Of a stretch of 64,000 nt of DNA, positions 5,866 to 62,485 are shown piece by piece. Source of the DNA: Phyllosticta citribraziliensis (taxonomy: Eukaryota); the NCBI RefSeq assembly GCF_038025025.1, contig NW_027117338.1, positions 2,480,001 through 2,544,000 of the forward strand, read 5' to 3'. The translations under genes and the position numbers were made by a program. The notes under the pieces are model-generated. The model made no database searches, had not been told where the DNA came from, and saw only the letters and a list, made by a program, of their open reading frames with translations. Numbering within the stretch: the stretch's first letter is position 1; every line of letters begins with the position of its first letter.

Positions 5866-6410
5866 GTGAGGGCATCGCAACAGCGGCTTTTTTGCAATTT
5901 GTTTCAAGCATGGCGCTCAAGAGGACAGGGGTTTGGTTTTTGGGATTCGTGATGCAGACATGGACCAGGAAATGGAGCTATCCGAGGGGAGTCTGATCCT
6001 TAATCGATTTATACCTACGTGCTTTGGGAAGGGATATAGGTATCTCTTGAGATATTCGAGTAAACGGTACATGGGATACAGAGCATGCCATGCAGGCGCT
6101 GTGTAGTGTGACCGCATGACAGAGATTCGAGAAAATCCCCAAATCCAGTCAAATTGGACAGACACATGGGAGGGCTATGAACGCTGCGTTCCTCTCACTC
6201 TGCTCGAGGCGCAGGGTTGTAAGCAACGCAACGCAACGCAACCTTGACTCTAATTACATAGAGTTGCCCTATATAATAGGCTTCACCAATTATATTATAT
6301 AATTAGGTAGTTTAATTATATAGAATTACTTTTATTACTCTTACTACTAAAAATTACTACCTAGTAGAAATAATTTAATTTCTCCCCTATAATCTAAATA
6401 TACTAAAAAC

Positions 6411-6569
6411 TACTACCTACTACTCTTACTACTAAGAGCACCCCTTATTTAGGGCTATCTCTCTTATATATATATATATAAAAAACTAGGTCTTAGTATT
6501 TTATATATATATATAAGAGAGATAGCCCTAAATAAGGGGTGCTCTTAGTAGTAAGAGTAGTAGGTAGTA
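6411..6569. repeat. Near-perfect inverted repeat (arms of about 70 bp, short spacer) in the hAT subterminal region
   Basis: TACTACCTACTACTCTTACTACTAAGAGCACCCCTTATTTAGGGCTATCTCTCT(TA)8 is followed by (TA)7 plus its exact reverse complement, ending at 6569. Confidence 0.95.
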
Positions 6570-6769
6570 TTTTATAGAGGTAGTTTAGTAGTATATATAT
6601 ATATAATATAAGTATATTTTTAGTACTAAGACTTAGTATACTAAGATTTTAACTTAATTATCTAGTAATAATTAGTAAAATAGTAGGAGACTATAGAGAG
6701 AGAGGTAAATTTAAGTATATAAAATATATAATAATAAAGAGACTAGTCCTAAATAACTACTCTAGTATA

Positions 6770-9189: not shown

Positions 9190-10605
9190 TATAATAGTAT
9201 TACTTAGGCTATCCCTATAAATAGGCTTAATAGCTAAGACTACTTAGATATATAGATAATTTCCCTAAGTACCTAATTCTCTTATATAATCCTTAAATAA
9301 TTAAGTAATTACTTAGAGAGAAATTAGCCTCTAAGTAGATATTACTATATACTAGGGCCTAGTCCCCTTAATATAATAAATATATATTATTATATAAGTA
9401 TTTAAGGTAGGATTATAGCTAGTAGAGGTTATATAACCCCTAGGTTCCCTAAAATAGAATACTAAAGTAAGGAGGTATAGCCTTATTTTAGTATTAATAT
9501 AGAGGAAGACTACTATAGAAGCCTATATTAAGAAGAATATCTCTATACCCTTTTAATCTATTTACTAGTAGGTTATAGGATATAAATCTTAATAGACTAG
9601 TAGTCTTAAATAGATAGAAAAAAGTCTTTTAAGTAAAAAGAATAAATTTAGTAAAAAGTAATTAAAGAGTTAAAGAAAGAGTTATTATTAGAAAAGCTAT
9701 TTAGAGGGACTTAAGGCCTTCTTATATATCTTTTTCTAGTACTAAGAGAACTAATATCTATTATATAATAATAGACTAAAGTCTCTAACTAAGTATATTT
9801 TTTCTAGTAAAGTAAAATACTAGAGAGTTAGATAATACCTAACTAATAACTAGAAACTAGAAAGAAGGTACTTTACTAATTAGTAGTTTCCTTAACTACT
9901 AATAAAATATACTATCCTAATTAATCTAGAGCCTAGTATCTAATAAAAATTATAAAAAGGATCTTTCTTCCTATATAATTATATAGTAGTTATTTACTAC
10001 CTATATAATTATATAGAGGCTATATCTAAAGTAAAACTAACTTTTTAATAAAACCTAGTTTTAATTAGATATTAAGGAAGTAAGGATTCCTTAATTAAAG
10101 TAAAGTTATTAAGTAGATTATTCTTCCTAATAACTTCTAACTATAATAACTTAATAACTAGTTAAGATATAGTAATTCTAAAATATATTTTAGAATTCTA
10201 TTATATAGAAGTATAAAACCTAAATATAAGGTTTTTAATACCCTAGTCCCTATTAGGTAGGTAGGGAGGTCCTAGCTAGGTCTTTATATAGGAAGGACCT
10301 ATATATTAAGATAGATTAAAAAGTAACTAAGCCTAAGAAGTATTATTATATAATACCTTAGGGGCTATAATATTTATCTAGAAGTTCTAAAGTTTATCTA
10401 TCTACTAGGTAATTTTCTATAGAAATATATTATTTAAGTATTTCCTTCTCTTTTAAATATCTTACTAATAAGTTACTAGATTAGGATAGGAAATATACTA
10501 TTTAAATTATCTAATTCTACTCTATAAGCTTATATATTAAGCTTATCTAAAAGTTACCTAAAAAGCTTCTAATTTAGTAAACCTTCTTAAATAAAGGTTA
10601 TTATA
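9190..10605 (-). repeat. Gypsy-A 3' LTR (1416 bp)
   Basis: Colinear with 61070-62485, same length, differing mostly by transitions. Confidence 0.95.
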
Positions 10606-10688
10606 GCTATCTCCCCACTTCCTAGAATATATCTTATATTCTATAAGTATATAGAGACTATAGAGGTCTAGTTCTAGATAGAGTAATT

Positions 10689-11360
10689 ATATCTCTTTCT
10701 ACCTAGTACCCTTATATCCCTTTATTTAATAGGGGTAAGGGTTTTAGCCTTCTAGATAAAGATAAGAAACCCTACTAATCCTACCTTAAAAACTTTAAAT
10801 ATTACTACTACTTAGGCTATATCTAGTCTAATAGAGATAAGGATAATCCTAAGGGAGAACTATTTATTATTTATTCTTATATAAATTATATAAAGAATAA
10901 GATAACTTACTCTTTTAGTAAGTTCTCTACTCTTAACTATATATATAAGTATAATACTAATATATATATTATTAAATAACCCTATAAGGCTAAAAGGACT
11001 CCTCTAAATAGCCTTAAGAATAAGATCTATAAGATAGAGTAGTCTATTCTAAATAAAAGAGCTAAGATAGGGGTTCTAGAGGAATAAGTTTCTTCTCTAG
11101 AAAGAGAGCTAGCTAAGACTAGAGATACTCTTTAAAGGATCTAAGACTTTTCTAATCTAAGTATAGGATATATTTAGAATTCTAGTCCTATTCTAGAACT
11201 AGAGGATAAGGTATATAATAGCTATACCTTATTTACTTATCTAGGAGAAGAAGAGTTCTCTATTAGTATTAATTTCTTTAGTCCTAACTAGTTCTAGTTC
11301 TAGAACTATTTAGAACCTTTATATATAGGCCTTAGTAAAGGTAGCCTTAAAGAAATCTAA
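10689..11360 (+). pseudogene. Putative antisense accessory ORF of Gypsy-A (Cys cluster plus coiled coil), RIP-damaged
   Basis: Frame from ATA(ATG) at 10689 gives Cys-compatible TAT/TAC codons spaced C-x2-C-x6-C at ~10878-10910. A heptad-like stretch follows (LDSLENKIRK.EQSILDKRAKMGVLEEQVSSLERELAKTRDAL after de-RIP). Only one copy is available, so the reconstruction is ambiguous. Confidence 0.5.
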
Positions 11361-13452
11361 CTATAGTCTCTCTTTAAATATTTCTTTTTTTTATAAGAAA
11401 AGGTAAATTTTCCTTTTTTCCTTTTATTAGAGTAGTACTAGGGGTATATAGATCTAAGTAAATATATAGTCCTAAAGAGTAGAATTCTACTATTCTAAAA
11501 ATATAATAATTTTAAAAATCTATCTATATTTAGTTAAATAATTAATAAGGGAAAAGGTTTCTCCTCCTTAAGTAGTATAAATTTTTCTATAGTAGATTAT
11601 ATAATATTATATATTAAAAAATCTAGAAAAATTTATAGATTATAAATATATAAAAATTTCTTAGATTATACTACTAGTTCTTCTACTATTAAGGCTAGAA
11701 GTTATAGTAGAAGTAAGTCTTAAGATAGATATTAGTTTTAGGTATATTAGCCTAGTATTAAGCCTAAAATAAGCTTAATAAGACTTTATATAAGTAGTTA
11801 TATAAATAACTAAGTAGAAGAAAAGTATAGGTGCTTATTTTTCTTTTTTTTAATAAATTTATTAAGATACTTCTCCTTAAATTCTTTAAGTAAATTCTAG
11901 GCTCCTATAAGGTTTTCCTCTAGTTCCTAGGAGTTCTTATTAGATAGATAGTCTAGCTATTTAATTAAGTATTTATAAGCTCCTTTATAGTATTTATAGT
12001 CTAGTATTTTTTCTACCTTATAATCTTTATCTACTAATAGAGAATCTTTAGCTTCTCTATTAATTATAAGAGGTATATTATCTAGATATTTTTCTAATAG
12101 TAATATATAGAATACTAGATATATAGGTAAGTCCTTAGATAGTTATAATTTATAGTTTAGACTTAAGACCTTTTTAATAATTTTAAAAGGTCCTACTTTT
12201 ATATAGTCTAATTTTTTAGAGGGTCATCTTATAGAGAGGTTTCTTTTTAATAAAAATACTTTATCCCCCTCTTTAAGGTTTAGTATATCCTTATACTATT
12301 AGTTATAATATTTAGCCATTTTATAAGAGATAAAATATATATCTTTAACTAAAGATTTATATAACTCCTTTAAATTATTAGATTTTATAATAGCATCTTA
12401 AGCTAACTTATTATAGAGTTTAGGTTTATTAAAGTAATTAGGCTTAAAGCTATAATTAGTATAAAATAGACTTATTCTAGTAGTTTCTATTATAGAGGAA
12501 TTATAAGTAAATTAAGCTAATAGTAATAGAGATACCTAATTATTTTATTAATAATTAGAGTATATCCTAAGATATTACTCTATTACTTAATTTATTCTTT
12601 CTATTTAACTATCTATTTATAGATAATAAGCTATAGATAATTTAGTTTTAGATCCTAGTTAATCTATAAGGGTTTACTAGAATTTAGATATAAATTTAGA
12701 ATCTCTATCTAAGATTATAGTCCTAGGTATTCTATATTAACTAACTATATACCTAAGGAAGGTATATACTAGTATCTTAATATTAGAATCTTCTTTATAA
12801 GATATAAAGTAAGAGAATTTAATTATCCTTTTAGTAATAATTAAAATACTATTAAATATATCTTTAGATCTAGGGACTTTAGAGCTAGATAGCTTAATTA
12901 TAAAGTCTAAAGCTATAGAATCCTATAGCTAGTTAGGTAGTTTAATAGGTTTAAGAGCTCTATAAGGTATATATCTAAAATATTTAGATTTAATATATTC
13001 TAGGTAACTTTTAAGGATATCTCTTAATCTTTTATATAAATCTAGTATATAAAAGTTCTAGCTAATCCTTTCTACTATTTTAGCTATTCCTTAGTATCTA
13101 TAGATAGGAGATTTATATATAGCCTTTATAAGAGTATTATACTATTTTTTAGGTATATAAAGTAGTCCCTAAAATATAATAGATCTATTATCTATTACTT
13201 TAATATCTAGATCCTTATTATTAGCGGCTAATAATAGTTCCTAAGCTATAGTATATTATGGCGCCTAGTAGAGCAAATTAATACTAACTACTAATAATTA
13301 ATAGGTAAGGAGTAAGAGTAGTTACTATAAAGCCTATATAGAAAGACTATCTACTCCTTATAGCTAATACTAACTATATATAGCTAGTATATAGGAGAAA
13401 GGTATTACTAAAACCTAAAAATACTAGAGGTATACTAGTATATATAATACTA

Positions 13453-37501: not shown

Positions 37502-40500
37502 TCTAAGGCTATAATGTCGCCTTTACTAATAATAGTAAATTCTAGCTCTTTAACTATATCTATAAACTCCTTAGTAACCTCCTCTATAACCGCCGCGCTA
37601 TAAGTAAAGGTATATAGTTAGCTAATAGGGTCTAGGTATAGATAATCCTTAATCTAGTAGTCTAGATTACTATAATACTAATAACTATAGGAGCTAGGGG
37701 TCACTTCCTACTTTATAATAGTAGCTAGAACTACTACTAGGGTTACCTAATATAATATACTAACTAATAGGCTATAAACTATAGCCTTATTTCTAACTAA
37801 ATAGGAGCTTAAACCTAGATCTACTATTACCTTACTAATATTAGCTACTTACTCTAAGTTACCTAGGAGCTTATTATAGTTAGTTATAATTTAGGCTATA
37901 GTAACTAACTAAAGTAGTCTAGTTAGCCTCTAGAGTAGCTAGTTCTTACTTATTTTAGCATCTTAGCTAGCCTAGTAAGTAAGGATCTAGTATATATAGA
38001 GATCCTATTTAAAACTAGTACTAGAGCTAGAGATTAAATATAGCTAGGCAAGCTATAAGAGGGCGCGGCTATATATATTAGTAATACTAAATAGGCTATC
38101 TAATATAGCCTAGACCTTAAAGGGATCGGTCTTATTATAGTTACTAATAATAATAGAATATACTACTATACCTAAGAGGTATAACTAGATATATATAGCC
38201 TTTACTATATTATCTAGAAAGTAGGCCTTATTAAATAATAGCTTATTAAGAATATTTTAATACTAGATATAATAGTCCTCTAGTATACCCTTACTATTAA
38301 AATATTTAGGATTAGTAAGTTAGTACTAGACCTTATAGACTAGTATCTTACCTTAATTAGCTAGTTTACTATAAGTAGTAAGCACCTATATAAGCTCTAC
38401 TAGAAGCTTATAAGTTAATAGTTTAGGGTTATTAACTCTTAGGGGTAGGTTATTATCCCTAGTAGTACTAGGAATAACTAGAGGGCTAGATAATAGACTA
38501 GTAGCTAAAGACTACTAGCTAGCTACTAGTAAGGTTTAGGGAGTAGCTAATAGTACTATACTACTAATAGAGGTTTAGCTACTCTTAGCTATTATATAGC
38601 TTACTAACTATATAATATAATAAGATAAACTATCTCTATTACCTTTAGAACTATCTAGGCCTAAAATCTTACTTATATACCTTACTAGAGGCTATAGACT
38701 ATAAACTTAATAATACCTAGAGCTTCTAGTATATCTATTAATATAGTATTTTATCCTAATACCTTATAGGGCAGGATAGAAGTAAGAGAACTTATTAGTA
38801 AGGAGTAGATAGAAAATTAATACCCTCTATAAGTAAAATTAACCTATTAATAGTATTATAGTACCTAGTAGAGCGAATTAATACTGACTACTAATAATTA
38901 ATAGGTAAGGAGTAAGAGTAGTTACTATAAAGCCTATATAGAAAGACTATCTACTCCTTATAGCTAATACTAACTATATATAGCTAGTATATAGGAGAAA
39001 GGTATTACTAAAACCTAGAAATACTAGAGGCGCGCTAGCGCGCGTAATATAGTATCTTTAGAATAACTATTCTTAAAGAGTTCTTCCTAACTAGTATTAG
39101 GTAGGATAGAGGTAGAAGAAGTAGAAGAAGAGGTAGGAGAATTAGATATATTATCTCCTATACCTATAGGAATATCTTTAGAAATAGCTATATCTTCTAT
39201 ACTAGATATAGAATTATAGAATTCTTCTAGAGTAGTTAATATAGGTCTATTTCTTATAGGTAAATCTATTAGTATTTCTTCTAATTCTAATAACTAGTCG
39301 CGCGCGCGCTTATTAGTACTATAGGTAACCCCCTTATAGGCGCCTTCCTTAGTAGGCCCCCCCTACTTATAGGTCCCTATTTAATAGTTAGCTTAGTCTA
39401 ATTAATAAACCTTACTTATAATACTTATTCCTATTAGATAAGAATCTACTATCTCTATAGGGCGACCTATATTAAAATAGTAGCTAAAAGTATAAAAGTA
39501 CTACTACCTACTTTTCCCCTTTAGTTAAATATATAGTAAAAGCTATACTAGATCTAATAACCTTTCCCTTAAATAAATCTAATAGTAAAAGCTACTACTA
39601 TTTTAACTCTTAGCTCTAAAAGGTACCTCTTATAAATAGCTAGGATACCTATTATTTCTTAATACTTCTACTTTATATCCTAACTATTTATTCTAAGAGA
39701 ATTTACTTCTATATAATTTAGCTTAAACTTACTTCTACTTAATTTAGTAAAGCTCCCTAGGGCGCTATACCTACTATAGATAGACTACTAGATAAAATAG
39801 TAAAAAGAGTATAGAATTTAGTTAACTAGAATAATAACTTTCCCTAGTATACCTATATACTAGGAACGGCTTATTTAGATATTCTTAACTATATAAGATA
39901 GTATAATTATCTAGTTATATAGTTATTATCCTATACTAGTACTAGCTCTTAATAGTCTAAAGAAGTATAATAAGTATATCTAATTATATAGTATAGGACT
40001 AGGAAAGACAGTTCCCTAACTAGCTTAGCTAAGAAAGTAGTTAATTACGCGCTTAATAAGTAGTAGTAATAGTATATAGAATATACTTATATGCCTTATA
40101 GCTTACTAACCTAACCCCTATAACTAACTCTAACTATACTATTATCTACTATACTCCCTACTATATAATTATCTACTATACTCCCTACTATAAGTACCTC
40201 TACTTACTCTTAGACTCTAAAGAAGTAGCTACTTCTAGGAGGATTTAGTCCTTCTATATATCCTAAGGAGATAAGGGTAGTTACTATAAATATACTAGAA
40301 CTAGTATACCTAAAGGATCTACTATTTCCTTTATAGTTATTATTATATACTCTAACTACTTAATAGGGTAGTAATATATAGATAACCCTTTAATATACTA
40401 TTTCTTTAGAGTTACTTAGGTACCCTACTATATCTCCTATCTTACCCTTATTTACTCCTACTAGTTATCTAATAACCCCCTTAACTATATTTTATACTCC

Positions 40501-46641: not shown

Positions 46642-47240
46642 GTATCCTATAAGTATAGTACCTTAGCTACTTCTATTATATCCTATAATATTACCTCTAA
46701 GCGCTAGTATATAACTAGCCCTATATAGGATTCTAATAGTAGCCCTTTTAATTAGACTATTCTAACTATATTAACTATAAATATCTCTTTATACCCTAGC
46801 TAGAAGCTAAAGAAAACTACCCCTACTATATTATCTATTAATTTATATAATTCTTTACCTAAATAAGGCTAGTCTAAGTTCTACCTATACTTAGTATTAA
46901 ACCCTATAGGTTACTATAACCTAACTAAGCTTAGATATATTAATATAAATATCTCTCCCTACCTAAAAAGTACTATAAATAGCTTACTATATACGCCTCT
47001 ACCTAGGTTTAGCTAGCCCTATTATTATAATAGTAGTACGAAATTCCTAATACTAAAGTTAAATATATCTAACTCCCTAACTAAGTATGCTATTACTCTA
47101 GTAGAGAAGAAGGATATAATAGTACTATAGACCTTATACTTAGGGTCTTATACCTTATTACTCCCTAATACCCTACCTATAAGGCTATTAACTACTTCTA
47201 CTATTATCGCGCCTACTATAGTAACTCTAATACCTCTAGA

Positions 47241-47415
47241 TATCTCTTTACCTTATAACCTAACTATATCTATAATAGAAAAGTCTACTCTATTAAAAGC
47301 TACTATTCCTTATACCCTAGTTATATATATCCCTTTACCTTATAATCTAACTATATCTATAATAGGAAAGTTTACTCTATTAAAAGCTACTATTCCTTAT
47401 ACCCTAGTTATACCT
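47241..47415 (+). repeat. 87-bp tandem duplication (29 codons), with further degenerate units to ~47740, in the Gypsy-D 3' extra region
   Basis: TATC(T/C)CTTTACCTTATAA...AAG.TACTCTATTAAAAGCTACTATTCCTTATACCCTAGTTATA occurs at 47241 and 47328. Confidence 0.85.
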
Positions 47416-48723
47416 ATAATAGCTACACCCCTAGTAGCTGCTATATTAATATCTACTTTATTAAAAATTCTAGCTTATAATGCTCTAAGTATACCTACTA
47501 TAGTTATAACCTTAATACCTACTAGGTCTACTCTATTAAGGATCCTAACTCCTTATACTCTAGTTATACTAAATATATTAGTACCTTTAAGCTTAGTAGT
47601 AGCTCTAGTCCTACCTATTATAGACCTAATAAATATAGGTACTCTATCTAAGACCCCTTTAACCCTTACTATAACTATATAAGTAGTAGTTTCTAGTATA
47701 TTAAAGGTTACTATCCCTTATACCCTAACTATACCTACTCCTATAGTATTATTAAGCTTAGTTATAGATCTATTTATACCTACTAAGACTATACCTATAA
47801 TAGTAATAACTTTAATATCTACTACTATTAATACTACTTATACTACTTATATAATATCTAGTATAGTAAAGAAGTCTACTAATAGAGCCCTATAGGTAGA
47901 TAACTATAAAATTATTCTAAGAGTTAATAAAGAAGAGGTAAAAATTTATATACCTAACTTATCTAACCCTAGTAGGGCTAATATTCTTAACTATATAAAG
48001 AATATTACCTAGCTATATAAAGAGAATAAGGATAAAGTTTAGCTTATCTATATAGCTAATATTAGCTTAGATATTTAGAAGGCTATATATATATAAATAG
48101 AGAGGATTACCTAGGGCTTACTATACTCCTAGTATAATATAGATTTCTTAGCTGCCCTTATAGAGTTATCTATCCTATTAGACTATATTATAAATAACCC
48201 TACCTTTATAGTATATATTAATAACTAAGTTATTTTAAAATATATTCCCTATTAAGACTATACTTCCTATACTTAAGTAGAATTAGTTCTAATCTCTACT
48301 AATATAGATAATTTTACCTCTCTACTCTATAATTAGATAATTTAAGGACTATTTATACTATTATATAACCCCTTTATAGCTGATCTTATAGTAGTATATC
48401 TCCCTACTAGTAGCTTACTTAAGCTATTATTTAAGCCTTATACTATTAATATTACTTATATTACTCCTCCTATAAATACTAATTAGGTATAATTCTATAC
48501 TAATATCCTATAGGACTAAGCTCTCCTTTTAACTATATACTTATAGCTTTAGCCTTCTCTCTTAGTATACTATACCTATCTATAGGCCTTTTATTCTAGC
48601 TCTAACTATAGATATATAATATAAATATATACCCTTCTAGCTACTAATACCCTTACTCTAATTATAGATATAATAGGGCTAGACTCCTTATATATTAAAG
48701 TTCCTTAGTTATTATTAACTATT

Positions 48724-57404: not shown

Positions 57405-60400
57405 ACTTATAGGTCCCTATTTAATAGTTAGCTTAGCCTAATTAATAAACCTTACTTATAATACTTATTCCTATTAGATAAGAATCTACTATCTCTATAG
57501 GGTAACCTATATTAAATTCTTATTCTTCCTCTTTTTTACTAGGACTTCTAGTAAGAGCAGCTATAGACCTAACTATAGGCTAATAAGAGGAGTTCTTATT
57601 AGGCTTTAGTTTAGACTTATATAGTATATTTACTTAAGGTTTATTAATAATTAAATCTCTATTTTCTATTTTATTAAATATAGTCTTAAGAGTAGACTCC
57701 TTATTTAATATATAGTCTAATTATCTAGATAAGGTATTAGCCCTATTATTATCCTTTCCTTTATAGTAGGAAATAGTAAAATTATAGTTAAATAGTATTT
57801 CTAACTATCTAGCTTAGTAGTAAGTTAATTATTTAGTACTAGTAAAGTACCTTAAATTAGAATAGTCTATTATAATAGATATAGAATATTTAGAGCCTTC
57901 TAAATAATATCTCTATTCTTTAAAAGCTATTACTATAGCTAGTAATTCTTTATTATAGATATTATAGTTTAATTCTACTAGAGATAGCTTTCTAGAGTAA
58001 TAAGCTATAGGATAAAGGTTTCCTTCTATATTAGGCTAATTTATATAAGCCCCTATAGTATAATCTAAAGTATTAGTTTCTAAAGTAATAGGAGATTTAT
58101 AATTAAAGATCTTTAAAACTAGGGTAGTAGTAAAAGCCTCTTTTAGTTTATTTAAAGAATCTTCTTACTCCTTAGTCTAGTTAAAGGGTATATCTTTTTT
58201 AGTAAGGTATATAAGAGGCTTAGCTATTTTACTATAGTCTCTTATAAACCTTCTATAAAAGTTATAGAATCCTAGAAAGGACTATATCTCTTTAATAGTC
58301 TTAGGAGTAGGCTATTCTAATAAAGACTTTACTTTATTAGAATCTATAAGGACTTTATTAGGCCTTATTATAAATCCTAGGAATTTAACTTCTTAAGAGG
58401 AGAATATATAGTTTTTAGGCTTAACTAGAAGTCTTCTTTCTCCTAGTTTAGCTAAAACCTTTAATATATATTCTTTATACTCCTCTAGACTATTAGAGTA
58501 GATTAAAATATTATCTAGATAGATAGTTATAAAGATATCTAAATATTCTTTTAGAGTATTATTTATAAGTACCTAAAAAGTAGCTAGAGTATTAGTAAGG
58601 CTAAAGGGTATTACTAAATACTTAAATAATTTAAAGTAGGTCTTAAAGGTAGTTTTCTACTCTTCTTCTTCTTTTATTCTTATTAAATAATACCTATCTC
58701 TTAAATCTAACTTAGTAAAATACTTAGTACTATTAAGCCTATCTTATAGTTTATCTATATAAGATAGGGGCTACCTATTCTTAATAGTTATACTATTAAG
58801 CTTATAGTAGTCTATATAGAGGTATAATTTATTATTAGATTTAGGTATAAATAATATAGGAGATCTATATAGAGAAGAAGAAGGTCTAATATAACCTTTC
58901 CTTATATTCTTATCTAAATAGGTCTTAAGAGCCTCTAATTCTATATTAGATAGAGAATATATAGGACTAAATATAGAGTTTTCTCCTTCTTTTATAGGAA
59001 TTTTATAGTCCTAAGGCTAGTACTTAGGTAAAGTACTAAAATCCTCTTTATTAAGAAATAAATCTAGGTATTAATAATATTCCTTAGGAACCTTTTCTAT
59101 ATAGCTTTTTTCTAGGGAGCTATCTTTATTACTTCTTTTACTAGAGAGTATTTTTTCCTTAGTATTATAAATAGTTTTAAGTAGCTTCCTAGATTAGACT
59201 TTTAGCCTAGTAGGGTCTTAAATATCTATATTTTTTAAATTATAGTCTATAGGCCTTAGTTTTATAGGAGTAGGTAATTTATCTAGTTTATACTAGTAAA
59301 TAAAGATATCTTTATTTTTTCTTTTCTTCTTAAGAGACTTATAGGATATAGTAAATATCTAAGTTTTAGGCTCTATAATCTCTAACTTAATATCTTATAA
59401 TAGTAGGTATTTTTTATACCTATAGTTATAGATATTAGCTAGATTTTTAGAGTAAAAGATAATAGGATTAGACTTTTTAAAGTCTAAAATAGGCTCCTAT
59501 TTCCTTAACTAAGGTATTCTAAGTATTAAATTATAGCCTAGGATCCTAGTAATATCTAATATAATTTTTTTCTAGTAGGTCTTTCTATATTCTAGGGCTA
59601 TAGGTTTAGTTTCTAGTAAAACCTACCCTTTATCTTCTTTTACTAGACTTCTATCTATAGTATAAAGCTTATAGGGTATTATTTTATCCCTTATAGCTAT
59701 ATTATACTATCTCTAGAATTTAGAGTCTATATATATTCCTTAGGCTCTAGTATCTATTAAAGCTCTAGCTTTAATTCTATTTAGATATACTATAATAACT
59801 AGGTATCTATTATAATTATTCCCTCTCTTACTAGTATTACTATAAGGTATAGCTTCCTTTATAGATACTAGGGATTTACTTCCTTTATTAAAAAGTAAAG
59901 TAGTAGCTTTAGTAACCCTATTTACTAAAGCCTTTTCTAGTTTTTTACCTTAGAATTAATTCCTTACTCTTTATTATTATTTATAGTATCTAGGGGATCC
60001 TTATAAGTAATATAAGCTATAGAATAATTACCCTTATTATTCTTTTTCTTATAGCTAGGCTTATTATTATAGTTATAAGACTTTTTCCCCTTAGGATTAG
60101 AAGGATAGTATAGGTTATTTCCTTTATATATTACCCCTATATCTATAGAGTCTCCTTAACCTATAGAAGTATTATTATTATAATAATTTACTCCTCTAGT
60201 CTCCTTATATCTTTAGTAGCTTCTACTATTAATTCTAATAGTAGAATTTATAAGACTAGATAGAGAAGAAGGAGGATCTTATCTAACTAGCTTATCCTTA
60301 ATTCTTTCTTTTAATTCTAATTTATATTAGTATATTAAGATAGCCTTATTCTAGTCTACTTTAGTAGCTAATTACTAGAATAAAGTAGTATAATCTATAG

Positions 60401-61069
60401 TAGCTTTTTATTATTTTAATTAAGTAAGGTATCTTTCTATATCTTTCTTTTTATTATAGATACTAAAGATCTCCTATATAGCTTTAGTATAATTATTAAA
60501 GCTATTAAATAGGTCCTTAATAGAATCTCTCCTATAAAAATAGTCTTTCTTATTAAAATCCTATCTAAAAGAGTTAAACTATTTAAAGATAGATCCTTTT
60601 AGAAAGGAAGTAATAAATATAATTATTTCTATTTTACTACTAAAGAGATAGCTAAAGAATAGGAAATAATTAGAAATCTAAGCTAAGTAAGGTTCTAATT
60701 TATTTCTAGAGCTATTATAAGTATCTAGCTTAGATACTTTAATATAGTATTTATCTTCTAAATTACTAAAGGTTTCCTAAAGAGGTACTAGTAGTAGAGG
60801 TACCTAATTATTTTCTTATTAAACCCTTAGCTTATTAAGGCTAAATTAAATACCTTCTATTATTCTTTCTATAGTAGAGAAATAAGTATTATTAGAAGCC
60901 TCTATATTAGCCTAGATAGTAGCCTAATCTAGAATAGGTTAAGTAGGATCTATAGTCTAAATAAATAAAAAGAATATAGATATATAGTAAGTATATCTAA
61001 TATTCTAATAAACTTAGATAGATAAAAGTCTAAGAAAACCTAGAGAACCTTCTCTAGAAGTAATAAAGC

Positions 61070-62485
61070 TATAATAGTATTATCTAGGCTATCCCTATAA
61101 ATAGGCTTAATAGCTAAGACTACTTAGATATATAGATAATTTCTCTAAATACCTAATTCTCTTATATAATCCTTAAATAATTAAGTAATTACTTAGAGAG
61201 AAATTAGCCTCTAGGTAGATATTACTATATACTAGGGCCTAGTCCCCTTAATATAATAAATATATATTATAATATAAGTATCTAAGGTAGAATTATAGCT
61301 AGTAGAGGTTATATAACCCCTAGGTTCCCTAAGATAGAATACTAAAGTAAGGAGGTATAGCCTTATTTTAGTATTAATATAGAGGAAGACTACTATAGAA
61401 GCCTATATTAAGAAGAATATCTCTATATCCTTTTAATTTATTTACTAGTAGGTTATAGGATATAAATCTTAATAGACTAGTAGTTTTAAATAGATAGAAA
61501 AAAGTCTTTTAAGTAAAAAGAGTAAATTTAGTAAAAAGTAATTAAAGAGTTAAAGAAAGAGTTATTATTAGAGAAGCTATTTAAAGGGATTTAAGGCCTT
61601 CTTATATACCTTTTTCTAGTACTAAGAGAACTAGTATCTATTATATAATAATAGACTAAAGTCTCTAACTAAGTATATTCTTTCTAGTAAAGTAAAATAC
61701 TAGAGAATTAGATAATACCTAATTAATAACTAGAAACTAGAAAGAAGGTACTTTACTAATTAGTAGTTTCCTTAACTACTAATAAAATATACTAGCCTAA
61801 TTAATCTAGAGCCTAGTACCTAATAAAAATTATAGGAAGGATCTTTCTTCTTATATAATTATATAGTAGTTATCTACTACCTATATAATTATATAGAGGC
61901 TATATCTAAAGTAAAACTAACTTTCTAATAAAACCTAGTTTTAATTAGATATTAAGGAAGTAAGGATTCCTTAATTAAAGTAAAGTTATTAAATAGATTA
62001 TTCTTCCTAATAACTTCTAACTATAATAACTTAATAACTAGTTAAGATATAGTAATTCTAAAAGATATTTTAAACTTCTACTATATAGAAGTATAAAACT
62101 TAAGTATAAGGTTTTTAATATCCTAGTCCCTATTAGGTAGGTAGGGAGGTCCTAGCTAGGTCTTTATATAGAAAGGACCTATATATTAAGATAGATTAGA
62201 GAGTAACTAAGCCTAAGGAGTATTACTATATAATACCTTAGAGGCTATAGTATTTATTTAGAAGTTCTAAAGTTTATCTATCTACTAGATAATTTTCTAT
62301 AGAGATATATTATTTAAGTATTTCCTTCTCTTTTAAATATCTTACTAATAAGTTACTAGATTAGGATAGGAAATATACTATTTAAATTATCTAATTCTAC
62401 TCTATAAGCTTATATATTAAGCTTATCTAAAAGTTACCTAGAAAGCTCCTAATCTAGTAAACCTTCTTAAATAAAGGTTATTATA
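61070..62485 (-). repeat. Gypsy-A 5' LTR (1416 bp)
   Basis: Colinear with 9190-10605 and followed by TSD GTAAA. Confidence 0.95.

What the first reader, a model, noticed from the sequence alone, without database searches (positions are those of the whole stretch)
10606..11830. A second family (Gypsy-A) also has an antisense Cys-cluster/coiled-coil ORF between pol and the 3' LTR
Seen: a 1.2-kb spacer follows the chromodomain. The antisense frame from 10689 has a basic patch, Cys-compatible codons (C-x2-C-x6-C, then further candidates ending in PC) and a leucine-heptad-like helix. Knowledge: a Cys cluster followed by a coiled coil is the Zn2Cys6 transcription-factor layout. Antisense genes driven from the 3' LTR are known in HTLV-1 (HBZ) and some plant Ty3/gypsy elements. 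Inference: two families independently place a zinc-binding antisense gene in the same slot, while C, E and F lack one. This suggests a recurrent accessory regulatory or counter-silencing module in fungal chromoviruses.
Basis: inference. Interest (0 to 1): 0.7.

Follow-up and report, generated by a model that had tools for sequence, protein, structure and literature searches.

The report
Dead antisense six-cysteine gene in Gypsy
A mutation-wrecked fungal jumping gene keeps, backwards between its polymerase gene and its end repeat, the remains of a small extra gene that probably coded for a zinc-binding, coiled-coil protein; this layout is already known from a Botrytis element and is common in this element's intact relatives.

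Summary
The stretch is the pol-to-3'LTR spacer of a RIP-destroyed fungal chromovirus. The + frame 10689-11159 (antisense to pol) keeps a coding signal (best of six frames, 0 of 2000 shuffles) and a seven-heptad coil, so a former gene is likely. Y-x2-Y-x6-Y occurs in 89 of 270 RIP-mutated frame tiles, the Gal4 six-Cys spacing is absent, and the 'further candidates' probably lie in a 54-nt intron. Cys cannot be confirmed: all three copies lack CpA, TpG and CpG. A long-loop, DUF3716-like six-position motif at 10770-10910 fits better, but that pattern was tuned after seeing it and pairwise support is weak. Family B's gene hits DUF3716 weakly, and sister family A' matches a host DUF3716 gene. The generalisation holds: 15 of 16 intact loci in A's clade carry an antisense six-Cys gene, mostly with a coil and under purifying selection where measurable. 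A's own gene does not score against that family. The layout is published (brtn of Boty; plant antisense aORFs); I found no paper on the domain content. This scan noted such genes before, on other DNA of this and other genomes. Function is inferred, not shown.

The parts
9190..10605 (-). 3' LTR of element A (1416 bp); inferred source of the antisense promoter
   Evidence: 96.5% match to 61070-62485; TSD GTAAA on both flanks; promoter role is inference
10610..10623 (-). Polypurine tract
   Evidence: AGGAAGTGGGGAGA just before the LTR on the - strand
10689..10917 (+). Candidate exon 1 of the antisense gene (start uncertain), with a basic patch and the six-position motif
   Evidence: Best-scoring frame, 0.05 bits/codon; same frame in 3 of 3 copies
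10770..10916 (+). Long-loop six-position motif: Pro, Tyr codons at 10773, 10782, 10818 (after Gly), 10878, 10887 (after Asn) and 10908, then Ser-Phe; Cys-compatible, DUF3716-like
   Evidence: The strict pattern occurs 3 times in 111,996 codons of the RIP part (here and in both B genes) and in 5e-5 of shuffles; pattern ranges were set after seeing this site
10918..10971 (+). Probable 54-nt in-frame intron (GTAAGT ... ACTAAT ... AG)
   Evidence: Acceptor AG in the C11 and C4 copies and in run contig X4, absent in the window copy; 4 of 59 GTAAGT in the RIP part have branch plus AG; donors 2-3 codons after the last Cys in relatives L071, L074, L075, L091
10972..11291 (+). Candidate exon 2: basic patch, seven-heptad coiled coil (11004-11141), then an acidic/Ser-rich tail of uncertain end
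   Evidence: 0.11 and 0.09 bits/codon, best of six frames; heptad register
11831..13257 (-). 3' part of pol: integrase, SH3_Tf2-1, chromodomain (RIP-broken)
   Evidence: Pfam E 0.0038, 1.8e-12, 4.2e-7
57515..61069 (-). gag and 5' part of pol (PR, RT, RH) of the same element, separated by 44 kb of nested insertions
   Evidence: Colinear with the C11 and C4 copies; tblastn with P0002-P0004
61070..62485 (-). 5' LTR of element A

Best explanation
Element A is a dead fungal Ty3/Gypsy chromovirus that carried a third, antisense passenger gene between pol and the 3' LTR. Shown: position, orientation, residual coding signal, heptad coil, presence in all three copies, and clade context. [quoted passage not shown] An intron on the antisense strand survives retrotransposition because the packaged RNA is the sense strand. 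The product would be a protein of about 180-200 aa with a long-loop six-cysteine zinc-binding domain of DUF3716-like rather than Gal4 spacing, a basic patch and a dimerising coil. The most likely job (about 50%, given the gene) is a nuclear DNA-binding regulator of the element's own LTR. The slot appears to be refilled with different six-Cys genes in close relatives.
For: Coding score best of six frames, 0 of 2000 resamples. Heptads. Strict DUF3716-like pattern only here and in the two B genes within the window, and in all 6 A and A' loci but none of the other 18 SH3 loci. B gene hits DUF3716 as its only family (E 0.062). A' gene scores 73-83 against host DUF3716 gene L119, null maximum 43. 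A and A' fall in a 99-support clade where 15 of 16 intact loci carry an antisense six-Cys gene, against 0 of 31 informative rows outside it for the short-loop type. That family has dN 0.02-0.06 against dS 0.4-1.05 in three close pairs and 429 database members. Its model resembles Zn2Cys6 domains. Six of 15 carriers have dense TGATC/TGAGC arrays on the LTR side of the gene.
Against: No homologue of A's own ORF was found (the single hit P0115 is a repetitive coiled coil). It does not score against the clade's short-loop family. Pairwise scores against host DUF3716 genes are weak (p 0.02-0.08 among 17 targets). Its best pairwise match is the non-DUF3716 long-loop gene of L057 (44; 0 of 372 null tiles). 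It does not align with its sister's gene (p 0.35-0.44) and only weakly with B (p 0.04). The last spacing is 6 residues where the DUF3716-type genes seen here have 8. The strict pattern was tuned after seeing the site. The candidate intron is in frame, stop-free and scores as coding (0.19), so it could be exon. No RIP image of the LTR array is enriched in A's LTR, and CGG pairs are not enriched in carriers' LTRs. The tree is the quick one and the RIP rows have odd composition.
Confidence: 0.6

Rival explanations
1. The gene was a diverged member of the clade's short-loop Zn2Cys6-like plus coil family, with its first Cys at 10878 and the second half in 10938-10985.
For: Phylogenetic position and slot; Y-x2-Y-x6-Y followed 10 codons later by another Tyr codon; a coil follows, as in that family.
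Against: No second Y-x2-Y in frame; profile score at null level while held-out members score 13.9 and 46.7; the second half overlaps a donor-branch-acceptor signal.
Confidence: 0.12
2. It was a real antisense coiled-coil gene with some other Cys/His/Arg-rich N-terminal domain, neither DUF3716 nor Zn2Cys6; the six-position pattern is partly a RIP coincidence.
For: TAY is four-way ambiguous and Cys is the least likely source per codon; exon 1 has 11 Tyr codons, more than six ligands need; no match to the sister's DUF3716 gene; L075/L091 show that other long-loop patterns exist in this slot.
Against: Pro, Gly, x-Asn and Ser-Phe context all fall where host and B DUF3716 genes have them; looser patterns still give shuffle frequencies of 0.002-0.005.
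Confidence: 0.2
3. The spacer was non-coding, and the motif and coil are artefacts of RIP composition; or the antisense RNA itself, not a protein, mattered.
For: The half motif is common by chance; no database homologue; PMC7264820 discusses RNA-level roles for antisense transcripts.
Against: Frame-specific codon signal comparable with pol and absent from LTR tiles; seven consecutive hydrophobic a-positions; 15 of 16 clade relatives have a gene here.
Confidence: 0.08

Closest known systems
[quoted passage not shown] 2011, Virology 417:248; not held; seen only as cited in passages of PMC7264820 and PMC8365987)
   Same: Additional antisense gene between pol and the 3' LTR of a fungal Gypsy element.
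   Different: Sequence relationship not tested (no brtn sequence on hand); the passages read give no domain for brtn; the gene here is dead.
Plant antisense aORF-3R genes (Grande gene23, RIRE2, Retand, PvRetro13; PMC7264820, parts 1-2 of 3 read)
   Same: Same slot and orientation, present in most copies, own promoter and nuclear product reported for Grande, proposed accessory role.
   Different: Reported domains are SMC-like or transposase_28; 'zinc' does not occur in that review; plant elements.
DUF3716 (PF12511) proteins, including REP9-1 and REP9-2 of a Zymoseptoria tritici class II transposon (PMC8232023; abstract and passages read)
   Same: Fungal six-Cys domain carried as a passenger by a transposon; A's motif has the same context residues; B and A' genes in this genome are of this type.
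   Different: REP9 is a DNA transposon; A's last loop is 6 rather than 8 residues, its third loop is longer, a coil follows, and no Pfam or clear pairwise match was obtained.
Gal4-type Zn2Cys6 factors (Gal4, Ppr1, Put3, Leu3, Hap1, Pho7; PF00172)
   Same: Six-Cys cluster followed by a dimerising coil; intact clade relatives have the canonical spacing and a model whose listed Foldseek rows are 14 of 16 these proteins.
   Different: A's frame lacks the spacing; relatives score below the Pfam cut-off (3 of 11, best E 0.068), all Foldseek E are 0.59 or worse, and CGG pairs are not enriched in their LTRs.

Membership tests
Ty3/Gypsy chromovirus | RT-RH-INT order with C-terminal chromodomain, LTR pair, PPT, 5-bp TSD | tested here: met
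Antisense aORF between pol and 3' LTR (brtn-like layout) | Coding frame antisense to gag-pol in the pol-PPT spacer, shared by the copies | tested here: met
   Coding score; same frame in 3 of 3 copies
Antisense aORF between pol and 3' LTR (brtn-like layout) | Transcribed from its own promoter and spliced | not testable with these tools
   Only splice-like signals were seen
brtn itself | Sequence homology to brtn | not tested
   Paper and sequence not available
Zn2Cys6 (PF00172) | C-x2-C-x6-C-x5-12-C-x2-C-x6-8-C spacing, read on Tyr codons | tested here: not met
   Absent in all six spacer frames
Zn2Cys6 (PF00172) | The ligand codons are Cys | not testable with these tools
   All copies are fully RIP-mutated; TAY is four-way ambiguous
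Zn2Cys6 (PF00172) | Coiled coil after the cluster | tested here: met
   Seven heptads at 11004-11141; not specific to the family
Clade's short-loop six-Cys plus coil antisense family | Profile match after allowing for RIP | tested here: not met
   At most 2.9 bits in 3 copies, null maximum 5.6 of 114; held-out L014 46.7, L057 13.9; the divergent L075 also scores 0
Clade's short-loop six-Cys plus coil antisense family | Element lies in the carrier clade and the gene is in the same slot | tested here: met
   Quick tree, 99 SH-aLRT, with a composition warning for the RIP rows
DUF3716 (PF12511) | P-C-x2-C ... [GS]-C ... C-x-N-C ... C-S-F context, as seen in L119, L120, B and A' | tested here: inconclusive
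   Pattern met on Tyr codons, shuffle frequency 5e-5, but ranges were chosen after seeing the site
DUF3716 (PF12511) | Pfam or pairwise sequence match | tested here: inconclusive
   No Pfam hit with X at stops; pairwise p 0.02-0.08; null-level against A'
DUF3716 (PF12511) | Eight residues between the last two Cys, as in the L119, L120, B and A' genes | tested here: not met
   Six in A; whether eight is obligatory in the family was not checked

The most novel reading that the evidence does not exclude
One clade of fungal chromoviruses keeps a fixed antisense slot behind pol that is filled, and repeatedly swapped, with six-cysteine zinc-cluster genes (short-loop Gal4-like, long-loop, DUF3716). 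These encode element-specific transcription factors that bind short palindromic arrays (TGATCA/TGAGCA type) in their own LTR, a Tat/HBZ-like autoregulatory circuit in a non-viral fungal retrotransposon. DUF3716 would then be a long-loop Zn2Cys6 relative exchanged with host genes.
Probability: 0.25. Interest if true: 0.75.

Novelty: new variant of a known kind. Interest (0 to 1): 0.45.

Why it matters
The function of antisense accessory genes in LTR retrotransposons is stated as unknown in PMC7264820. A widespread, selected, small six-Cys/coil family in fungal chromoviruses, with candidate binding arrays in the LTR, would make that question testable with intact natural relatives. It would also suggest a function for DUF3716, a domain that already has a phenotype as a transposon passenger (REP9-1 lowers pycnidia number; PMC8232023). 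This particular locus is a dead relic. It adds one more instance and a hint of gene turnover in the slot, not a mechanism.

Tried and rejected
Homologue searches with the window frame read with X at stops: no Pfam family, none of 237 candidates, one chance coiled-coil hit among 1.84 billion representatives, no look-alike in earlier findings. Less-mutated copies: the DNA and protein searches of the own genome gave the same three copies and the SH3 search added only sister and other families. No RNA holder was listed. Run contigs covered only short parts of the spacer and none of the motif codons. A first context-free RIP-aware pairwise scan of 571 segments gave no signal, even for A'. CGG-pair enrichment in carrier LTRs was not found (mean z -0.4 over 13 loci). 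A RIP image of the TGATCA array in A's LTR was not enriched. The DUF3716 model from two host genes was unusable (pLDDT 45) and was not searched. The wide fold search of the relative's model returned only generic coils (best Z 7.2) and did not test the Cys domain. No DUF3716 relative was found in viral contigs. A sense-strand, env-like reading was rejected because all three - frames score negative. A second intron near 11161-11244 was considered and left open. Literature searches (listings only unless stated) found brtn and REP9 but no paper describing zinc-cluster or DUF3716 antisense genes in fungal LTR elements. Most subscription papers, including Zhao 2011, and all supplements (for example Fig. 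S1 of PMC8365987) were not seen and may hold a domain assignment.

Full report
Setting. The window is a fungal chromosome stretch (G000:C1:2480001-2544000) whose middle 56 kb is a nest of RIP-mutated transposons, with GC near 25% against 55-59% on the flanks. Element A lies on the - strand: 5' LTR 62485-61070, gag and the 5' part of pol to 57515, 44 kb of nested insertions, the rest of pol 13257-11831, a 1.2-kb spacer, the PPT, and the 3' LTR 10605-9190, with the duplication GTAAA on both flanks. The LTRs differ by 45 transitions and 4 transversions in 1416 columns. Two more copies exist (C11 and C4, 93-95% identical).

What RIP allows. In element A, CpA/TpG and CpG are essentially gone (0.0003 and 0.0001, against about 0.07 in host and intact DNA). 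A simulation that removes only these dinucleotides reproduces A's composition (GC 0.244 against 0.242). Every Cys codon must therefore now read Tyr, but His, Arg and Tyr codons can read the same. All three copies show Tyr at the motif positions, and run contigs do not cover them. Y-x2-Y-x6-Y is weak evidence: it occurs in 89 of 270 RIP frame tiles.

Was there a gene? Probably yes. The + frame 10689-11159 scores 0.088 bits/codon under a RIP-aware coding model, best of six frames, against -0.081+-0.043 in 2000 resamples. Pol controls give 0.05-0.20, a gag tile only 0.03, LTR tiles are negative, and the three - frames are negative. Seven successive heptad a-positions are hydrophobic; some Ile codons may be RIP products.

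The relatives. Using the closest intact pol proteins I fetched 81 loci. A chromodomain end was located in 61, and 50 had at least 450 nt behind it. Fifteen carry C-x2-C-x6/7-C-x8/9-C-x2-C-x5-8-C on the antisense strand and none on the sense strand (L077 and L086 are near-identical). A profile adds L014 (frameshifted) and, weakly, L057 (long loop; E 0.013). In a quick integrase tree of 74 rows, A and its sister A' fall in a 99-support clade in which 15 of 16 intact loci are carriers; 0 of 31 informative rows outside have the short-loop gene, though 4 of them have long-loop six-Cys exons. L014 and L027 were not in the tree. The family has 429 hits among 8000 scored candidates, and 117 of the 120 listed keep the six-Cys spacing. 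Three close pairs give dN 0.02-0.06 against dS 0.40-1.05; two more give 0.28-0.31 against 0.73-1.5; two are saturated. The antiparallel pol-strand frame shadows this, with lower dS in all five. An AlphaFold model of one member (pLDDT 78) has a small cluster and a 74-residue helix, and 14 of 16 listed Foldseek rows are Pho7, Leu3, Ppr1, Hap1, Gal4 or Put3, all at E 0.59 or worse. Pfam Zn_clus is below cut-off (3 of 11), and atlas neighbours are unnamed ascomycete clusters.

A's own gene is not that gene. The canonical spacing is absent, and a RIP-aware profile gives at most 2.9 bits in the three copies (null maximum 5.6 of 114 frames), while held-out members after simulated RIP give 46.7 and 13.9. 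Earlier scan notes on this genome pointed me to DUF3716 and to brtn; I treated them as leads. Tested here: the genome has two intact host DUF3716 genes (one search agrees for one). Family B's antisense gene hits DUF3716 only (E 0.062). A' matches host gene L119 at 73-83 against a null maximum of 43. In A, Tyr codons at 10773, 10782, 10818, 10878, 10887 and 10908 sit with Pro, Gly, Asn and Ser-Phe where those genes have them. That pattern occurs three times in 111,996 RIP codons of the window (A and both B genes) and in 5e-5 of shuffles; looser forms give 0.002-0.037. The ranges were set with A in view. Against this, A aligns only weakly with the host genes (p 0.02-0.08 among 17 targets), best with the long-loop gene of L057 (0 of 372), not with A' (p 0.35-0.44) and weakly with B (p 0.04). 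Its last loop is six residues rather than eight. Family membership stays open.

The intron. Directly after the motif, 10918-10971 begins GTAAGT, has ACTAAT, and ends in AG in the two other copies and in run contig X4, but not in the window copy. Only 4 of 59 GTAAGT sites in the RIP part have a branch and acceptor at such distances. Four intact relatives have a GTGAG donor 2-3 codons after their last Cys. It is in frame and stop-free, so an exon reading is not excluded.

Mechanism. Inferred from anatomy and from known cases: an antisense promoter in or beside the 3' LTR (as for Grande gene23 and HTLV, per PMC7264820) made a spliced mRNA for a small zinc-binding, basic, dimeric protein. The most likely role is regulation of the element's own LTR. 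Six of 15 carriers have dense TGATC/TGAGC arrays 160-330 nt from the gene start, which would suit a cognate factor. CGG pairs are not enriched and no such array is visible in A's mutated LTR. Counter-silencing has no evidence here either way.

Comparison and novelty. The layout is published for a fungus (brtn, Zhao 2011, seen only as cited in passages of PMC7264820 and PMC8365987) and for plants (PMC7264820, parts 1-2 of 3). DUF3716 is a known passenger of a Zymoseptoria DNA transposon (PMC8232023, abstract and passages). Passages of PMC3248453 show no mention of 'antisense' or 'zinc'. Seven searches found no paper on six-Cys antisense genes in fungal LTR elements, but subscription papers and supplements were not seen. 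The scan has noted such genes before in this and other genomes. The HBZ and Tat comparison, beyond what PMC7264820 says, is recalled.

Verdict. Observation partly confirmed and interpretation partly supported. This is a dead antisense passenger gene, probably six-Cys of long-loop or DUF3716-like type plus coil, in a clade where that slot is nearly always filled. New variant of a known kind; interest 0.45.

Noticed in passing
L020, L027, L028, L038, L057, L070, about 160-330 nt on the LTR side of the antisense start: Dense arrays of TGATC[AC]/TGAGCA (5-10 sites in up to 600 nt) in 6 of 15 carriers; 0-5 in up to 1000 nt of 27 non-carriers. TGATCA is the top pooled 6-mer (17 against 2.9 expected). 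The pattern was chosen after seeing it, the regions are not position-matched and the carriers are related.
   Followed up: partly
L096:238-363, L098:216-341, L099 (G000 C6, C5, C13) and L119 (C11:1304896-1305060): A sister family A' (72% DNA identity to A in pol) carries a different, clearly DUF3716-type antisense gene that matches one intact host gene far better than the other (73-83 against 36-37). Possible exchange between host and element.
   Followed up: partly
window 25367 and 55644, - strand: Family B's antisense gene is less mutated and keeps real Cys codons; its only Pfam hit is DUF3716, below the cut-off (13.7 bits).
   Followed up: partly
L071:1965-2222, L074:6972-7298, L075:7248-7526, L091:7428-7733: A separate Gypsy clade carries antisense long-loop six-Cys exons that end at a GTGAG donor 2-3 codons after the last Cys; no informative Pfam hit.
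   Followed up: partly
window 9190-62485: Element A (about 9 kb) has been expanded by 44 kb of nested insertions inside pol; the two other copies share a 244-nt insertion at the same place that matches window 39048-39291.
   Followed up: no
window 6403-6577: A 79-nt, 96% inverted repeat with a 17-nt spacer at the edge of the AT-rich island.
   Followed up: no
window 47131-47682: A 183-codon stop-free frame with internal tandem repeats inside the RIP region.
   Followed up: no
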